Shown here piece after piece: positions 14,591-58,738 of a stretch of 64,000 nt of DNA. The translations under genes were made by a program, and so were the position numbers. Origin of the DNA: Shigella phage SP18; sequence record GQ981382. One strand, 5' to 3'. The notes beneath the pieces are model-generated. The model was given only the letters and a program-made list of their open reading frames with translations, ran no database searches and was not told the DNA's origin. Position 1 is the stretch's first letter; each line of letters begins with the position of its first letter.

Positions 14591-14821
14591 TTAAACTCCT
14601 GGGGTAGGCGCAAACATCGCCGCGTTCTTAGTTCGCCAATCGGCTGCATCAGTCACTACAGTAGTATAGGCTGCAACGGCCGAAGGAAAAGTCTGATAAT
14701 GAGCATCCGCAATACGATGCTCGTTCGAATAGATTTCAAACGGAACTGATACTTCAACACCTTTAACTTCTTTACCTTCACCAGCTGGATGCGTAAAGGT
14801 TTTGATATTAACACCACCCAT
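14591..14821 (-). CDS. soc: small outer capsid protein Soc, copy 1 (76 aa)
   Basis: MGGVNIKTFTHPAGEGKEVKG...HYQTFPS; Soc-family, RB69-like by memory. Confidence 0.8.
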   Translation of the reverse strand: MGGVNIKTFTHPAGEGKEVKGVEVSVPFEIYSNEHRIADAHYQTFPSAVAAYTTVVTDAADWRTKNAAMFAPTPGV

Positions 14822-15056
14822 GATTAACTCCTGGGGTAGGCGCAAACATCGCCGCGTTCTTAGTTCGCCAATCGGCTGCATCAGTCACTACAGTAGTATA
14901 GGCTGCAACGGCCGAAGGAAAAGTCTGATAATGAGCATCCGCAATACGATGCTCGTTCGAATAGATTTCAAACGGAACTGATACTTCAACACCTTTAACT
15001 TCTTTACCTTCACCAGCTGGATGCGTAAAGGTTTTGATATTAACGAAACCACCCAT
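14808..15056 (-). CDS. soc: small outer capsid protein Soc, copy 2 (82 aa, one extra Phe codon, C-terminus reads through the repeat junction)
   Basis: near-identical to copy 1 at DNA level; ends ...PTPGVNHGWC because the junction lacks the copy-1 stop context. Confidence 0.7.
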   Translation of the reverse strand: MGGFVNIKTFTHPAGEGKEVKGVEVSVPFEIYSNEHRIADAHYQTFPSAVAAYTTVVTDAADWRTKNAAMFAPTPGVNHGWC

Positions 15057-16006: not shown

Positions 16007-17035
16007 CTAAACTTTTGCGTACTTCGAAAGTCGCATTCTCGCCATCAATCCTTGAGCAACGTTATCGGCCATATATGATTCGATTTGTTCAGGGGTTGCC
16101 CCTTCTGATTTAACCATCTCATTTATGTCTTTCGTATGCCATGGTGCATTGTCCCAGAACATAACAGCTTCGCCAGCTTCAACGAGCTTCTTCATACGTT
16201 TAATCGTATCCGGATGTCTTGGCTCGTTGTCCATTACCCATACTCTTGTTTCAGCATAAGGAACAGCTTCCAATGCCAATGTGCCACCGGTTATCGCAAT
16301 GCTGTTAGGGATAAACAAACTATCAATTGGACCTTCCATTACCCATACGCGTTTACGCTCATCAATCTTGTCTACTCCATAGACTTTGGAAGCTTCTGGG
16401 TGAGCTTTGATTGTGATATATTTTTGTGGTGCATCTTTGCGAAGAGCTCGTCCTTGGAAAGATTCGATTTCTTTTTTGCCGTTGAAGATAGGAATAACCA
16501 AGCGTGGCTCATTCGTTTCATTCTTATACGTCCCGGGATTAACGGAGTTAACTAATGCAGGCCATTTGTTTGTAAACCATAACCGGTTCCAAACATTGCT
16601 AGGAATACACCGACTTTTTACATACTTAATTATCGGATGTGCTTCTGGTAAAGTATCGAGTCTTTCACAAAAAGCAAGCTGCTCGATAACCGGAGTTTTT
16701 TCTGGTTCTTTCGGAGTTTCTGCAACTTCATTGCGCTGTCTGCCAAAGGCATTCTCCTTATACTTCTCAACCATATATTCCCGGTGTAAATCCGGCTCAA
16801 ACTCTTTTATGTATTTGCTTATATGCGTGGAGTAGTCACAGTTAAAACATTTCACGTAAACCGCGCCATCAGACGGATTGGTATACGCCCAGAATCGAGC
16901 TTTATGTGAATCTTTCTGGGAGTCGCCACAAACTTTACATCTGCAGTTTGCCTTAAATGTGCTCCCGGTGACTTCTCTATAACGTGGTTGATACGATAAA
17001 GCTCTGACTGCAAATTCTTTATCAATATATGACAT
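16007..17035 (-). CDS. 61: DNA primase gp61
   Basis: 342 aa, same length as T4 gp61; N-terminal Cys4 zinc ribbon (CRCKVCGD...CFNCDY) and Toprim core. Confidence 0.9.
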   Translation of the reverse strand: MSYIDKEFAVRALSYQPRYREVTGSTFKANCRCKVCGDSQKDSHKARFWAYTNPSDGAVYVKCFNCDYSTHISKYIKEFEPDLHREYMVEKYKENAFGRQRNEVAETPKEPEKTPVIEQLAFCERLDTLPEAHPIIKYVKSRCIPSNVWNRLWFTNKWPALVNSVNPGTYKNETNEPRLVIPIFNGKKEIESFQGRALRKDAPQKYITIKAHPEASKVYGVDKIDERKRVWVMEGPIDSLFIPNSIAITGGTLALEAVPYAETRVWVMDNEPRHPDTIKRMKKLVEAGEAVMFWDNAPWHTKDINEMVKSEGATPEQIESYMADNVAQGLMARMRLSKYAKV

Positions 17036-17067
17036 AGTTTCCTCATTTCAATGGCCCCGAAGGACCA

Positions 17068-17235
17068 TTATACTGTAGGTTTATCGTCTTTGTTCTTACG
17101 CTTTTTTGATGGGATTTGTTCAGGGCCTTTATTGACAACCACCCCGGAAGTGGTACCTGTTGCGGTATTAGTTGGGTTTCCACCTGCATCACCGGCAACC
17201 ATATCTTCGTTTATAAAATCTTTGAATGTTTTCAT
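17068..17235 (-). CDS. small protein (55 aa) with IP-like capsid-targeting N-terminus MKTFKDFINED and basic C-terminus
   Basis: ATG preceded by AGGGGG SD; N-terminus resembles MKTYQEFITE of the IP genes; hand-derived coordinates. Confidence 0.4.
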   Translation of the reverse strand: MKTFKDFINEDMVAGDAGGNPTNTATGTTSGVVVNKGPEQIPSKKRKNKDDKPTV

Positions 17236-17254
17236 AACACCCCCTTTCCGCTAT

Positions 17255-17446
17255 TTATACAACAAAGATAGCTTTATCACCATTTGCATCAGTCACTTCA
17301 TAAGTGTCTTCATGATACAACGGAATAATCCAGGTAACACCATCATCAGCGATAACATGGATTGCTTCTTGGTCTTGCGACACGATTTCATATTCTTCAA
17401 AAAGCTGGAAGACCGAAATCTTAGAGCCCGTACACATTGCACTCAT
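17255..17446 (-). CDS. hypothetical acidic protein
   Basis: 63 aa ORF. Confidence 0.45.
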   Translation of the reverse strand: MSAMCTGSKISVFQLFEEYEIVSQDQEAIHVIADDGVTWIIPLYHEDTYEVTDANGDKAIFVV

Positions 17447-17643: not shown

Positions 17644-18003
17644 TTAACCTCGCTTCATGAAGGCATTAAAAATCTGGTCATCAATATCAGTAGGCGGTTC
17701 TTGAGCTTTGACCCAAGCCCCTTCCAGAATGTCATTTGCTTCAGTAGATATCATGACCCCAATTTCAGGGTTTCCGGTTATCCATACTGCACAATCGCGG
17801 ACATTCTTTTTATCAAATGGATAACCACGATTATCTTCACAAGGCCCATTCATTGTCATAAATGAACGAGCCTTTATGATAACATCATCTTTAACGATAA
17901 TATAACCAATCGCCTGATTATAACGAGGCTCACGAAATTCATAGTGAGCATTACCATTATTATTGCTCACCAGTTCAAAATTCAGAAAATTATAATAACT
18001 CAT
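17644..18003 (-). CDS. hypothetical protein with C-terminal DDQIFNAFMKRG tail
   Basis: 119 aa; shares about 40-bp 3' coding segment with the adjacent upstream gene. Confidence 0.5.
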   Translation of the reverse strand: MSYYNFLNFELVSNNNGNAHYEFREPRYNQAIGYIIVKDDVIIKARSFMTMNGPCEDNRGYPFDKKNVRDCAVWITGNPEIGVMISTEANDILEGAWVKAQEPPTDIDDQIFNAFMKRG

Positions 18004-18004
18004 A

Positions 18005-18445
18005 TTAATCTCGCTTCATGAAGGCATTAAAAATTTGGTCGTCAACTGAATATACAGGGGTTTCCAGAAGTTTCAAAAGACTGTTTTTAATGTACTTACC
18101 CGGGATACCCATATTAACAATACTGTCATTCAATTCATTATCAGGGTTGATGTCTTTAAATTCAAACCCATCAAATTCAACCTTGTCAGGAATACCATCA
18201 GCGAAAAAATAAACCAATTGGTGCATTGTATTGCGCGAAAATAATTTAGACTTGACCGCAATAAGTTCTTGCCAATGGTTTAATTCTTTGTTAAGAAGTT
18301 TATGAGCAAACGTAATTCTATTATCACTATCAACAAGAAAATAACCCAGGTATTGAATGGGTTCGTCGCTCCAAAACATCCTGTATGCTTGTGCATTTTG
18401 ATTTTTACAACGAAGTTTTTTGATAACTAGAGTTCTGTTAATCAT
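18005..18445 (-). CDS. hypothetical protein with C-terminal DDQIFNAFMKRD tail
   Basis: start trimmed to MINRTLVIKK to abut sp; about 146 aa. Confidence 0.5.
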   Translation of the reverse strand: MINRTLVIKKLRCKNQNAQAYRMFWSDEPIQYLGYFLVDSDNRITFAHKLLNKELNHWQELIAVKSKLFSRNTMHQLVYFFADGIPDKVEFDGFEFKDINPDNELNDSIVNMGIPGKYIKNSLLKLLETPVYSVDDQIFNAFMKRD

Positions 18446-18446
18446 T

Positions 18447-18740
18447 TTATTCACCTGTAACCCATTGAACAATCTTGCTGTTGTCAAATGAAGCATCGCA
18501 ATACAGAACATAGTTATACTGCATAACATCACCAGAAGTCAATTGGTCAGATACTTCTTTAACCATATCAGGACGGTCACGTTTAGTAATATTCATGATG
18601 TCAGCATAAATCTGATGTTCAACATCAGCCTGGTCAGCAGTCATGGACCACTCGCAAAGGTCTTTATCAAGTCCAGCAGTAACTGGAGCTGTGCCACATG
18701 ATGCTACGGTAAGAATTGCTGCGATTAATAACTTTTTCAT
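18447..18740 (-). CDS. sp: Spackle periplasmic protein (superinfection exclusion; inhibitor of gp5 lysozyme)
   Basis: 97 aa with signal peptide; DKDLCEWSMTADQ and MQYNYVLYCD motifs as in T4 Sp. Confidence 0.85.
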   Translation of the reverse strand: MKKLLIAAILTVASCGTAPVTAGLDKDLCEWSMTADQADVEHQIYADIMNITKRDRPDMVKEVSDQLTSGDVMQYNYVLYCDASFDNSKIVQWVTGE

Positions 18741-57730: not shown

Positions 57731-58030
57731 TTAGAAAGAACCAGAGCCTTTAATTGTGTTCTGGCGACCTTTATTTTCTAATTCAGAATGGTCAATTTCA
57801 TATGCTTGTGCTACACCAAAAGCCTTTTTAACTTTAGCTAAAGAACCTTTAGATGTAACAATATTAAAAGTATTACCTTTGGTAAAATCAACCAAATCCA
57901 CTTGTACACCTTGTTTACCGAGGCTTGCGACAATAGCATCAACATATTGTTGGTCTAAATTGCCCTGGACTCCAATTTGGAATGCTTTAGGAGCTTTAGC
58001 TTCTGTGATAAATTCTTGATAAGTTTTCAT
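57731..58030 (-). CDS. internal protein (IP) with capsid-targeting sequence, cargo of unknown function
   Basis: 99 aa; N-terminus MKTYQEFITEA matches the T4 IP capsid-targeting/cleavage motif; own early promoter. Confidence 0.7.
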   Translation of the reverse strand: MKTYQEFITEAKAPKAFQIGVQGNLDQQYVDAIVASLGKQGVQVDLVDFTKGNTFNIVTSKGSLAKVKKAFGVAQAYEIDHSELENKGRQNTIKGSGSF

Positions 58031-58055
58031 TTATTCTCTCCAAGTTGATGGGATA

Positions 58056-58084
58056 ATTATGCACTATCCCATCAAAAAGTAAAC
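58056..58084 (-). promoter_or_regulatory. early promoter (GTTTAC -35, CATAAT -10) for the first IP gene
   Basis: GTTTACtttttgatgggatagtgCATAATtatcccatcaacttggagagaataa-ATG. Confidence 0.55.
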
Positions 58085-58086
58085 AG

Positions 58087-58350
58087 TTATGCTTTACCGC
58101 CAGAAACAATACCAAAGGTCTCAAAGTCCCATTCAATATCGTCAACATCAACTTTCTTACCAGCAACCACGAATGCGATTTCGCGACGTTTTGCATAGGT
58201 GACAATTTCTTTACCGTCACCACCAAAGAAAGAATAACCATTGCGCTTCATGGTGCCAAAGTCTTCAGCATCACCAGCAAACGCGCGGACTTTAAAGGAA
58301 CCGGCAGGAGCTTTAGTAGATTCAGTAATAAATTCTTGATAAGTTTTCAT
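58087..58350 (-). CDS. internal protein (IP) with capsid-targeting sequence, cargo of unknown function
   Basis: 87 aa; N-terminus MKTYQEFITES; 13 nt downstream of the preceding IP gene. Confidence 0.7.
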   Translation of the reverse strand: MKTYQEFITESTKAPAGSFKVRAFAGDAEDFGTMKRNGYSFFGGDGKEIVTYAKRREIAFVVAGKKVDVDDIEWDFETFGIVSGGKA

Positions 58351-58363
58351 AATGTCTCTTTAA

Positions 58364-58678
58364 TTACTCTTTAGGGAAATCGCGCAAAAACGCATCATAA
58401 AGTTTATTACCAATGCGACGGAATGCTTTTGCCGCATGAACGTTATCCGGATTTGCAATTTTAATTTGCATTACATGACTACCGGCCCATGATTTGGCTT
58501 CATCATAATAGCCTTTAATTTCTTTAATAGTCTTACGTTTTCCGCCAGGACCATCAACAGTAATTTTCCACGAACCGGTGCTTGTTTCACTTGGTGGGGT
58601 TAATTGTTCAATCCAGACATAACCGCCTTCAACACGTTTTTGGGTAGATTCAGTAATAAATTCTTGATAAGTTTTCAT
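58364..58678 (-). CDS. internal protein (IP) with capsid-targeting sequence, cargo of unknown function
   Basis: about 104 aa from MKTYQEFITEST; track ORF extends through promoter leader. Confidence 0.7.
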   Translation of the reverse strand: MKTYQEFITESTQKRVEGGYVWIEQLTPPSETSTGSWKITVDGPGGKRKTIKEIKGYYDEAKSWAGSHVMQIKIANPDNVHAAKAFRRIGNKLYDAFLRDFPKE

Positions 58679-58708
58679 TTTATATTCCATTGTTTGGTTG
58701 ATAAAATC

Positions 58709-58738
58709 ATTATACAACCTTTTTAGTTAAGCGTACAC
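58709..58738 (-). promoter_or_regulatory. early promoter for the IP operon; -35 GTGTAC lies inside the denV C-terminal codons
   Basis: GTGTACgcttaactaaaaaggttgTATAATgattttatcaacc. Confidence 0.5.

What the first reader, a model, noticed from the sequence alone, without database searches (positions are those of the whole stretch)
17068..17235. Unannotated 55-aa ORF with IP-like capsid-targeting N-terminus next to the primase gene
A sub-threshold ORF with a strong SD (AGGGGG) encodes MKTFKDFINEDMVAGDAGGNPTNTATGTTSGVVVNKGPEQIPSKKRKNKDDKPTV. The N-terminus follows the IP pattern M-K-T-[FY]-x-[DE]-F-I-x-E, and the rest is Gly/Thr-rich then strongly basic, which would suit a DNA-associated packaged peptide. 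It lies about 40 kb from the IP locus.
Basis: inference. Interest (0 to 1): 0.5.

Follow-up and report, generated by a model that had tools for sequence, protein, structure and literature searches.

The report
Capsid N-terminus mimic, gene 61.1
This 55-codon ORF is the known but uncharacterised T4-type gene 61.1; its product copies the part of the major capsid protein that the head protease cuts and that later locks capsid subunits together, so it is probably a small processed head peptide, which nobody has yet tested.

Summary
The ORF is real: 17068-17235, minus strand, 55 aa, with AGGGGG 4 nt before the ATG. It is under strong purifying selection (median dN/dS 0.07). It is not new or unannotated. 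It is gene 61.1 of T4-type phages (phrog_1823), annotated in T4, VR7 and P896, always just upstream of primase gene 61.

The IP-like N-terminus is real and specific. In the 64-kb window only the three IP genes and this ORF match the motif. In the whole T4 genome only IPII, IPIII and gp61.1 do.

The larger result is that residues 2-38 align without gaps to major capsid protein gp23 residues 55-91. That stretch covers the gp21 maturation site (LTE|AE) and the 26-residue "N-fist". A PDB-wide profile search finds only gp23 (E 6e-7). Most other T4-like phages carry a 150-165 aa form: an unrelated N-domain followed by the same module.

A TATAAATA late-promoter consensus lies 16 nt upstream of the ATG here, but not in T4.

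Best reading (about 0.4): a gp21-processed, head-associated peptide. There is no direct evidence. In T4 the transcript is early, the protein was not detected, and knock-down had no fitness effect. "Strongly basic" overstates a short Lys/Arg cluster.

The parts
17068..17235 (-). Gene 61.1, 55 codons plus stop: MKTFKDFINEDMVAGDAGGNPTNTATGTTSGVVVNKGPEQIPSKKRKNKDDKPTV
   Evidence: ORF list. phrog_1823 E 1.3e-30. Annotated orthologues in VR7, P896 and T4. Median dN/dS 0.07.
17206..17235 (-). Codons 1-10, MKTFKDFINE: a CTS-like, gp23-propeptide-like segment ending in the putative gp21 P1 glutamate (E10)
   Evidence: The motif occurs only in the 3 IPs and this ORF in the window, and only in IPII, IPIII and gp61.1 in T4. 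It aligns with gp23 55-65..AFGSFLTE. E10 is invariant in the family alignments.
17128..17205 (-). Codons 11-36, DMVAGDAGGNPTNTATGTTSGVVVNK: module homologous to the gp23* N-fist (gp23 residues 66-91)
   Evidence: BLASTP against VR7 gp23: 43% identity over 37 residues, no gaps, E 6e-8. The module HMM hits 63 of 74 gp23 N-termini and no other window ORF. The PDB-wide profile search finds only gp23. N-fist boundaries from PMC7136217.
17071..17127 (-). Codons 37-55, GPEQIPSKKRKNKDDKPTV: conserved G-P-E, then a Lys/Arg cluster (KKRKNK, 17089-17106), then a variable tail
   Evidence: G37, P38, E39, K44 and K45 are invariant. Tail net charge is +3 here and 0 in T4.
17240..17245 (-). Shine-Dalgarno AGGGGG, 4 nt before the ATG
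   Evidence: Read from the sequence.
17252..17259 (-). TATAAATA, the T4 late-promoter consensus, 16 nt upstream of the ATG; it overlaps the stop codon of the upstream ORF (17255-17446)
   Evidence: One of only 4 copies in the window (8.5 expected), all on the coding strand just upstream of genes; two of the others precede soc-like and rI-like genes. Kept in VR7-, JS98- and RB69-type loci, absent in T4-type loci. Function is inferred, not shown.
17049..17070 (-). 9-bp hairpin with a UUCG tetraloop (UAAUGGUCC-UUCG-GGGCCAUUG) that starts in the 61.1 stop codon, between 61.1 and the gene 61 ribosome site
   Evidence: -19.3 kcal/mol for the 71-nt segment, z -3.4. A hairpin at this place is found in most lineages, with a T-run in some, and is absent in T4.
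16007..17035 (-). Gene 61 (DNA primase), the conserved downstream neighbour
57731..58678 (-). Comparators: three internal-protein genes (57731-58030, 58087-58350, 58364-58678), each starting MKTYQEFITE

Best explanation
[quoted passage not shown] The copy comprises the last ten residues of the gp23 propeptide, the Glu-X cleavage site, and the 26-residue N-fist. A short Lys/Arg cluster follows.

Shown:
- It is a conserved gene under purifying selection.
- Its homology to gp23 59-98 is specific.
- Its first ten residues carry the determinants reported for the internal-protein capsid-targeting sequence.
- The Glu three residues before [AGS]-G-D is kept throughout the family.
- In this phage a late-promoter consensus sits directly upstream.

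Inferred:
- The protein is made late (as well as by early read-through).
- It enters the prohead by the contacts with the scaffolding core that hold the gp23 N-terminus and the IP targeting sequences there.
- The prohead protease gp21 cuts it after Glu10.
- This leaves a 45-residue peptide (DMVAGD...KPTV) that stays with the head.

Where that peptide ends up is open. It could be inside with the DNA through its Lys/Arg cluster, or docked where an N-fist docks. In the 150-165 aa forms of other T4-like phages, the roughly 100-residue N-domain would play the propeptide or targeting role that the decapeptide plays here. The role is accessory, not essential.
For: - Identity and selection.
- CTS-like N-terminus: unique outside the IPs in the window and in all of T4. 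Positions 4, 7, 8 and 10 fit the determinants summarised in PMC9026906.
- gp23 homology: BLASTP E 6e-8, 43% over 37 residues, no gaps. The module HMM hits 63 of 74 gp23 N-termini at E 1e-7 to 1e-10 (Z = 1e5) and nothing else in the window. It hits only gp23 among 7 head proteins of VR7, E 3e-11. The PDB-wide search returns only T4 gp23, residues 59-98, E 5.8e-7.
- The matched span is the propeptide end plus the N-fist, residues 66-91. In the prohead this region is disordered, lies inside the shell and probably contacts the scaffold.
- The Glu aligned with gp23 Glu65 is invariant in the two mixed short- and long-form alignments, A1 of 16 and A3 of 20 sequences. In the 33 long forms (A2) it is nearly invariant, with one apparent exception that looks like an alignment shift. 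By eye, nearly all of the 34 distant representatives read also keep a Glu (rarely Asp) at that register; some read E-A-E-[IV]-S-G-D exactly like gp23.
- Modular long forms: N-domain, then cleavage-type site, then the same module.
- TATAAATA 16 nt upstream, in a window where the other three copies precede 39.1-like, soc-like and rI-like genes. It is conserved in three short-form clades with different upstream genes.
- AF2 predicts no fold for the module on its own, as expected for a segment that becomes ordered only on a partner.
Against: - No direct evidence of cleavage or packaging anywhere.
- In T4 the 61.1 transcript is classed early and the protein was not detected (PMC9697503 Table S2). 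ipII and ipIII transcripts are also classed early there.
- T4 has no TATAAATA near 61.1.
- 61.1 does not appear in the main text or held supplements of a T4 virion mass-spectrometry paper.
- CRISPRi-ART knock-down of T4 61.1 had no fitness effect.
- JS98-type orthologues have V7 and M8 (MKSFKEVMNE), and long forms have no CTS-like N-terminus.
- At least 10 phage contigs that hold a match to the MKTYQEFI-coding pattern still carry the long form, so the decapeptide is not simply what CTS-using phages use.
- P3 of the putative site is not always hydrophobic in distant members.
- The gene sits among early genes, and its neighbours in T4 include counter-defence genes (dmd; 61.4 and 61.2 from my recollection of published work).
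- The gp23 match does not reach significance in a 1.84-billion-protein search (no gp23-sized hit at E <= 1e-3). Its significance rests on targeted and PDB-scale searches.
Confidence: 0.4

Rival explanations
1. A cytoplasmic mimic or decoy of the nascent gp23 N-terminus. Made early, gp61.1 would occupy a factor that handles or senses the first quarter of gp23. Candidates are GroEL/gp31, EF-Tu, or a host defence sensor of capsid protein (Lit-type, or CmdC of CmdTAC). It would either prepare the cell for gp23 synthesis or blunt capsid-triggered abortive infection. It would never enter the head.
For: - The same gp23 homology.
- In T4 the transcript is early, with early neighbours.
- The N-terminus of gp23 targets fusion proteins to GroEL (PMC3012670).
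- About 100 N-terminal residues of gp23 stabilise EF-Tu binding around the Gol region (PMC3014915).
- gp23 triggers CmdTAC through the chaperone CmdC, and no gp23 escape mutants were obtained (PMC11618068).
- Dispensable on a laboratory host, as accessory counter-defence genes are.
Against: - The family is conserved in sequence and in position across phages of Escherichia, Klebsiella, Salmonella, Edwardsiella, Acinetobacter, Aeromonas, Proteus and Vibrio, and under strong purifying selection. That pattern suits a phage-internal partner better than a host-specific arms race.
- The homology stops at about gp23 residue 98-100. As I recall, the Gol core lies downstream of this, so gp61.1 would lack it.
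- The invariant Glu at the cleavage register and the CTS-like decapeptide have no obvious use in this model.
- A late-promoter consensus is present in this phage.
Confidence: 0.25
2. A replication-linked accessory of the primase/helicase. The conserved position next to gene 61 and the Lys/Arg cluster would reflect DNA or primosome binding, and the likeness to gp23 would be an old borrowed segment with no present link to heads.
For: The position immediately upstream of gene 61 is conserved from T4 to KVP40. A Lys/Arg cluster is present. Timing is early in T4.
Against: - A hairpin, in some lineages with a T-run like a terminator, separates 61.1 from gene 61 in most lineages, so the two are not obviously one unit.
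- Gene order is conserved throughout T4-like core regions anyway.
- This model does not explain the conservation of exactly the gp23-like residues (G-D, N-I-A, G, T-x-G-A, G-P) and of the cleavage-register Glu.
- No nucleic-acid-binding or primase-related family matched.
Confidence: 0.1
3. A decaying remnant of a duplicated gene 23 fragment with no function of its own.
For: It is small, shows no knock-down phenotype, and the protein was not detected in T4.
Against: Median dN/dS is 0.07 with saturated synonymous sites between clades. Twelve or more columns are invariant in the short- and long-form family alignments. There is a good ribosome site. The gene is kept in a syntenic position in distant genera.
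Confidence: 0.03

Closest known systems
T4 gene 61.1 family (phrog_1823; long form phrog_2086)
   Same: Same gene: 69% identical to T4 gp61.1 and 96% to VR7 gp61.1, in the same position upstream of primase gene 61.
   Different: This copy has two private substitutions at conserved positions (I24T, A32V). Unlike T4, it has a TATAAATA upstream and a UUCG hairpin downstream. The family has no assigned function: it is listed as unknown in the CRISPRi-ART gene table, and searching 'gp61.1' found only two papers. One lists it in a gene table; I did not open the other.
T4 internal proteins IPII/IPIII (and the IPs of this window) with their 10-residue capsid-targeting sequence
   Same: N-terminal decapeptide MKT[FY]x[DE]FIxE, with aromatic residues at 4 and 7, Ile at 8 and Glu at 10. 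7/10 identical in T4 and 6/10 in the window, and unique to these proteins genome-wide.
   Different: No similarity after residue 10. The first 30 nt are only 22/30 identical and the upstream DNA is unrelated, so this is not a recent cassette exchange. It lies outside the IP locus. Packaging, cleavage and injection are undemonstrated. JS98-type orthologues deviate at positions 7 and 8.
[quoted passage not shown]
   Same: 43-53% identity over 29-40 residues without gaps, with the same conserved positions, across all the T-even, pseudo- and schizo-T-even lineages examined.
   Different: No HK97-fold body; the protein ends about 17 residues after the N-fist-like part. A Lys/Arg cluster replaces the hydrophobic N-arm (GPAVMGMVRRAIP). 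The database label 'major capsid domain-containing protein' is therefore misleading.
Small prohead core proteins processed by gp21 to internal peptides (gp67, gp68, gp22 fragments)
   Same: Small size, predicted gp21 processing, and a possible fate as an internal peptide (established T4 knowledge).
   Different: No sequence similarity. Those genes lie in the late head gene cluster, and gene 22 is essential. 61.1 lies among early genes and is dispensable.

Membership tests
gp61.1 family (phrog_1823) | Sequence match to the family profile over its whole length | tested here: met
   E 1.3e-30, profile positions 1-52 of 54. 94-96% identity to annotated gp61.1 of VR7-type phages.
gp61.1 family (phrog_1823) | Position immediately upstream of primase gene 61, same strand | tested here: met
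   32-nt gap to gene 61. Same arrangement in T4, KVP40 and most of the related loci parsed.
CTS-bearing internal proteins of T-even phages | N-terminal ~10-residue targeting sequence with the determinants at residues 4 and 7 (targeting) and 8 and 10 (processing) | tested here: met
   F4, F7, I8, E10. The motif is otherwise found only in IP genes in the window and in T4. This is a match by sequence only.
CTS-bearing internal proteins of T-even phages | Encapsidation in the prohead core, cleavage by gp21, injection with the DNA | not testable with these tools
   No virion data for this phage. No mention in the T4 virion MS paper. Protein not detected in T4-infected cells.
CTS-bearing internal proteins of T-even phages | Location in the variable IP locus near e/denV/57B, with the conserved 5' gene end shared between IP genes | tested here: not met
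   About 40.5 kb from the IP locus. The 5' coding end is only 22/30 nt identical and the upstream DNA is unrelated.
CTS-bearing internal proteins of T-even phages | Expression late in infection (late promoter) | tested here: inconclusive
   TATAAATA lies 16 nt upstream here and in VR7/JS98/RB69-type loci. It is absent in T4, where the transcript is classed early. No transcript data exist for this phage.
Major capsid protein gp23 (HK97 fold, T4 type) | HK97-fold body (A and P domains, E-loop) | tested here: not met
   Only 55 residues. The homology covers gp23 59-98 only. AF2 gives no fold (pTM 0.16).
Major capsid protein gp23 (HK97 fold, T4 type) | Maturation site L/I-x-E| followed by the N-fist sequence | tested here: met
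   FINE|DMVAGD... aligns with FLTE|AEIGGD.... Cleavage itself was not tested.
Substrates of the prohead protease gp21 | Cleavage C-terminal to Glu after a short motif (I/L at P3) | tested here: inconclusive
   I-N-E here. The Glu is invariant or nearly so in the family alignments and kept in nearly all distant members read. P3 is hydrophobic in most but not all distant members. The motif is short, and reviews note few determinants. No biochemical test.

The most novel reading that the evidence does not exclude
gp61.1 is a free-standing N-fist. After gp21 removes its decapeptide, the 45-residue peptide docks on the capsid lattice in place of, or in competition with, a gp23 N-fist. It could for example fill sites where no neighbouring N-fist is available, such as around the portal, where the N-fists of five gp23* subunits are disordered. 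It could also tune expansion, head length or Soc binding, with its Lys/Arg cluster reaching the DNA. That would be a new class of capsid accessory: a detached arm of the capsid protein encoded as its own gene and conserved across the T4-like phages of Proteobacteria examined here.
Probability: 0.1. Interest if true: 0.75.

Novelty: new variant of a known kind. Interest (0 to 1): 0.5.

Why it matters
T4 head assembly is one of the best-studied assembly pathways, yet this small gene has no assigned function and is kept across the T4-like phages of Proteobacteria examined here.

If its product is targeted and cut like the internal proteins, the set of gp21 substrates and packaged peptides is larger than listed. 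The T4 targeting decapeptide, used to load foreign proteins into heads, would then have a natural relative outside the IP locus.

If it works as a detached N-fist, or as a decoy of the gp23 N-terminus, it would show a new way for a phage to modulate capsid maturation, or to modulate host factors that recognise capsid protein.

Both readings can be tested directly in T4 with existing genetics, mass spectrometry and cryo-EM maps.

Tried and rejected
- Pfam and NCBIfam scans of the short and long forms found nothing.
- AF2 of a long form: mean pLDDT 65, a helical N-domain at 81-88, and the module below 50. Foldseek against the PDB gave no match at E <= 0.001. AF2 of the window protein gave pTM 0.16. 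Structure therefore gave no functional lead.
- I looked for the long form's N-domain elsewhere in the window and among the VR7 head proteins. It is absent.
- I tested whether each phage's gp61.1 tracks its own gp23. Own-pair identity is 15.5/29 against 15.1/29 for cross pairs, permutation p about 0.01, with a few lineage-specific shared residues (L038, L051). This is weak and confounded by phylogeny, so I do not rely on it.
- I tested whether the short CTS-like form is confined to phages that use the MKTYQEFI targeting sequence. 13 of 19 short-form contigs hold the pattern, and 14 if a sister contig of the same genome bin is counted. At least 10 long-form contigs hold it too, so there is no clean replacement story.
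- Recent recombination with an IP gene is rejected: 22/30 nt identity and unrelated upstream DNA.
- The profile search of 1.84 billion proteins found only 63 representatives and no gp23-sized protein at E <= 1e-3. The gp23 link is significant only at genome or PDB scale.
- Literature: 'gp61.1' retrieves two papers, one a gene-table listing and one not opened. 'N-fist' retrieves three structural or review papers on T4, and none of the passages read mentions a paralogue. The HIDEN-SEQ preprint and the T4-related genomes review do not mention 61.1.
- The sigma-70 promoter scan gave nothing specific for 61.1.

Full report
WHAT IS THERE

The ORF lies at 17068..17235 on the minus strand and encodes exactly the 55 residues quoted. 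AGGGGG (17245-17240) lies 4 nt before the ATG. The window comes from a VR7-like T-even phage (genus Gaprivervirus). The 2.1 kb around the ORF is 98.8% identical to phage P896 and 94% to VR7.

In VR7 the same ORF is annotated as '61.1, gp61.1 conserved hypothetical protein'. In P896 it is a hypothetical protein. In T4 it is gene 61.1 (NP_049649.1). It matches phrog_1823 over its full length (E 1.3e-30). So the ORF is real but not new.

The local gene order on the minus strand is dmd .. sp .. 61.2-like (two copies) .. 61.4-like .. ORF036c-like .. 61.1 .. 61 (primase) .. 56.

Orthologues in VR7-, JS98-, T4- and PEi20-type phages give a median dN/dS of 0.07 over 84 pairs, with synonymous sites saturated between clades. 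It is therefore a translated gene under purifying selection.

THE IP-LIKE N-TERMINUS

Among all ATG-started peptides of at least 25 aa in the window, the pattern MK[TS][FYW]x[DEQ][FY][ILV]x[EDQ] occurs four times: in the three internal-protein genes (57731-58678, all starting MKTYQEFITE) and in 61.1. I fetched the whole T4 genome and repeated the scan. Of 2326 peptides, only IPIII, IPII and gp61.1 (MKTFKEFIKE) match, and a looser pattern adds nothing.

A review of Mullaney & Black 1996 states that residues 4 and 7 of the IPIII targeting sequence matter for targeting and residues 8 and 10 for processing (PMC9026906). The window protein has F4, F7, I8 and E10.

The likeness ends at residue 10. 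The IPs give no hit to a profile of the rest of gp61.1. The first 30 nt are 22/30 identical to the IP genes and the upstream DNA is unrelated, so this is not a recent cassette swap.

THE STRONGER SIGNAL: A COPY OF THE gp23 MATURATION SEGMENT

Some records label this ORF 'major capsid domain-containing protein'. Following that lead, BLASTP of the 55-mer against VR7 gp23 aligns residues 2-38 with gp23 55-91. There are no gaps, identity is 43%, and E is 6e-8:

- gp61.1: KTFKDFINE|DMVAGDAGGNPTNTATGTTSGVVVNKGP
- gp23: EAFGSFLTE|AEIGGDHGYDATNIAAGQTSGAVTQIGP

The bar marks the known gp23 maturation cut, Glu65|Ala66 in T4 numbering.

Three further searches support the link:
- An HMM of the gp61.1 module hits 63 of 74 gp23 N-termini from diverse T4-like phages (E 1e-7 to 1e-10 at Z = 1e5) and no other ORF of the window.
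- Among seven VR7 head proteins it hits only gp23 (E 3e-11).
- A family profile searched against every PDB chain returns only T4 gp23: 6uzc residues 59-98 at E 5.8e-7, and mature gp23* at E 2e-5.

The matched part after the cut is the 'N-fist', gp23 residues 66-91 (PMC7136217). In the prohead this segment is disordered, lies inside the shell and probably touches the scaffold. On expansion it moves outside, contacts four subunits and helps form the Soc site (PMC9958956 and PMC9546572).

There are two caveats. In a search of 1.84 billion proteins the family has only 63 representatives, and gp23 does not reach E <= 1e-3. The more distant cyanophage-type gp23 proteins, whose N-fist region differs, are not matched.

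FAMILY ANATOMY

Related loci and protein searches show two main forms.

T-even-type phages (T4, VR7, JS98, RB69-like, PEi20) have the 52-56 aa form. Most other T4-like phages have a 123-166 aa form, in which an unrelated N-domain of about 100 residues is followed by the same module. These include KVP40 and relatives of RB49, RB43, KP15 and S16, as well as Acinetobacter, Aeromonas and Proteus phages. An example of the junction is ..EIFEALPLFE|DMVAGDSGGSVQNIASGTTTGAITNKGPEQIPAKRKRIK.

The N-domain has no Pfam or NCBIfam match. It is predicted to be helical, and Foldseek finds no relative. It is absent from the window.

The conserved residues are the Glu three residues before A-G-D, then G-D, G, I-A, G, T, G and G-P, and two lysines. 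The Glu is invariant in the mixed short- and long-form alignments. It is nearly invariant among the 33 long forms, where the one exception looks like an alignment shift.

Distant short forms again begin MKxFxx[FL][IVM]. Some read E-A-E-[IV]-S-G-D exactly like gp23.

AF2 gives no fold for the module, alone or in the long form.

EXPRESSION SIGNALS

TATAAATA, the T4 late-promoter consensus (established T4 knowledge), lies at 17259-17252, 16 nt upstream of the ATG. The window holds only four copies (8.5 expected), all on the coding strand just upstream of genes. The other three precede a 39.1-like gene, a soc-like virion protein gene and an rI-like lysis-inhibition gene.

The element is kept at the same distance in VR7-, JS98- and RB69-type loci, although the RB69-type loci have different upstream DNA. 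One-mismatch variants occur before many long forms. T4-type loci lack it.

A 9-bp UUCG-loop hairpin begins in the stop codon (17070-17049; z -3.4). A hairpin at this place is found in most lineages, sometimes with a T-run, and is absent in T4. In this phage 61.1 thus looks like a small unit of its own, with a late promoter and a 3' hairpin. This is inferred, not shown.

EVIDENCE FROM T4 EXPERIMENTS

- In the time-resolved omics study the 61.1 transcript is 'early' and the protein was not detected. ipII and ipIII transcripts are also 'early' there, with 'late' proteins (PMC9697503 Table S2).
- In the CRISPRi-ART screen 61.1 is 'Not Fit' (score -0.84, p 0.93) and of unknown function (PMC11879866 supplements).
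- A T4 virion mass-spectrometry paper does not mention it in its main text or held supplements.
- I found no paper that discusses the gene's function.

INTERPRETATION

The best-supported reading (about 0.4) is that gp61.1 mimics the gp23 N-terminus in order to use the same machinery. It would bind the prohead core as the gp23 N-terminus and the IP targeting sequences do, be cut by gp21 after Glu10, and leave a 45-residue N-fist-like peptide with a Lys/Arg cluster in or on the head. In long forms the N-domain would be the propeptide. The role would be accessory.

However, 'strongly basic, DNA-associated' is weak: the net charge of the predicted product is +2 here, -2 in T4 and +5 in KVP40.

The main rival (about 0.25) is an early cytoplasmic mimic that engages factors recognising the nascent gp23 N-terminus. 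These could be GroEL/gp31 or EF-Tu or capsid-sensing defences such as CmdTAC. Broad, syntenic, strongly constrained conservation argues for a phage-internal partner instead.

A primase-linked role (about 0.1) rests only on gene position. A dead remnant is excluded by the selection analysis.

Two supporting ideas did not hold up well. Covariation of gp61.1 with the gp23 of the same phage is weak. Long forms coexist with MKTYQEFI-type IP genes in at least 10 contigs.

VERDICT

The gene is known. What appears undescribed is its double likeness, to the IP targeting decapeptide and, more extensively, to the gp23 cleavage site and N-fist. That likeness gives direct, cheap experiments in T4.

Noticed in passing
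window 14594-14812 and 14826-15044: A perfect (100%) 219-nt direct repeat with 232-nt spacing duplicates most of the soc-like gene (phrog_1715, virion structural protein), giving two tandem soc-like ORFs (14591-14881 and 14808-15056). It is either a very recent duplication or an assembly artefact.
   Followed up: partly
window 17049-17070 (-); related loci L006-L054: UUCG-tetraloop hairpin starting in the 61.1 stop codon. In most lineages the sequence after the stop reads T(A/G)ATATAATGG followed by a hairpin, sometimes with a T-run. That looks like a terminator plus a -10-like element for gene 61. T4 itself has neither, with only 2 nt between 61.1 and 61.
   Followed up: partly
window 2988, 15095, 17259, 52622 (all minus strand): Only four TATAAATA copies occur in 64 kb (8.5 expected from composition). 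None lies on the non-coding strand, and each sits just upstream of a gene start (39.1-like, soc-like, 61.1, rI-like). This suggests selection against stray late promoters.
   Followed up: partly
window 17644-18003 and 18005-18532 (-): Two adjacent ORFs (119 and 175 aa) end with the same motif DDQIFNAFMKR[GD], as does T4 gp61.2 (..DDQIFNAFMNRG). They appear to be paralogous 61.2-type genes in tandem.
   Followed up: no
window 17164-17166 and 17140-17142 (codons 24 and 32 of 61.1): This copy has two private substitutions, I24T and A32V, at positions that are nearly invariant in the family and identical in gp23 (N-I-A, S-G-A-V). Close relatives (VR7, P896, VR20/25/26) keep Ile24, and all but VR26 (Thr32) keep Ala32.
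   Followed up: no
proteins P0154, P0163, P0171 and locus L031 (2710-3447): Some metagenomic relatives of 149-251 aa carry a further C-terminal domain after the Lys/Arg cluster. It begins M(N/T)E(V/M)xxF(K/C)(Q/A)F(V/M/Q)(E/T), a second IP-like N-terminal motif, as if a downstream gene with its own targeting-type start had been fused.
   Followed up: no
window 58364-58717 (-): The mechanical ORF call for the first IP gene starts at a TTG (117 aa). The ATG at 58678 gives the conserved MKTYQEFITE start (104 aa) and is the likely true start.
   Followed up: no
public records (UPEC01, UPEC07, dhaeg; UniRef names): gp61.1 orthologues and long forms are variously named 'major capsid domain-containing protein', 'Major capsid protein', 'exonuclease', 'methyltransferase' or 'DnaB-like helicase' in different records. 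The capsid names reflect the 40-residue gp23-like module, and the others look like annotation spill-over from neighbouring genes.
   Followed up: partly
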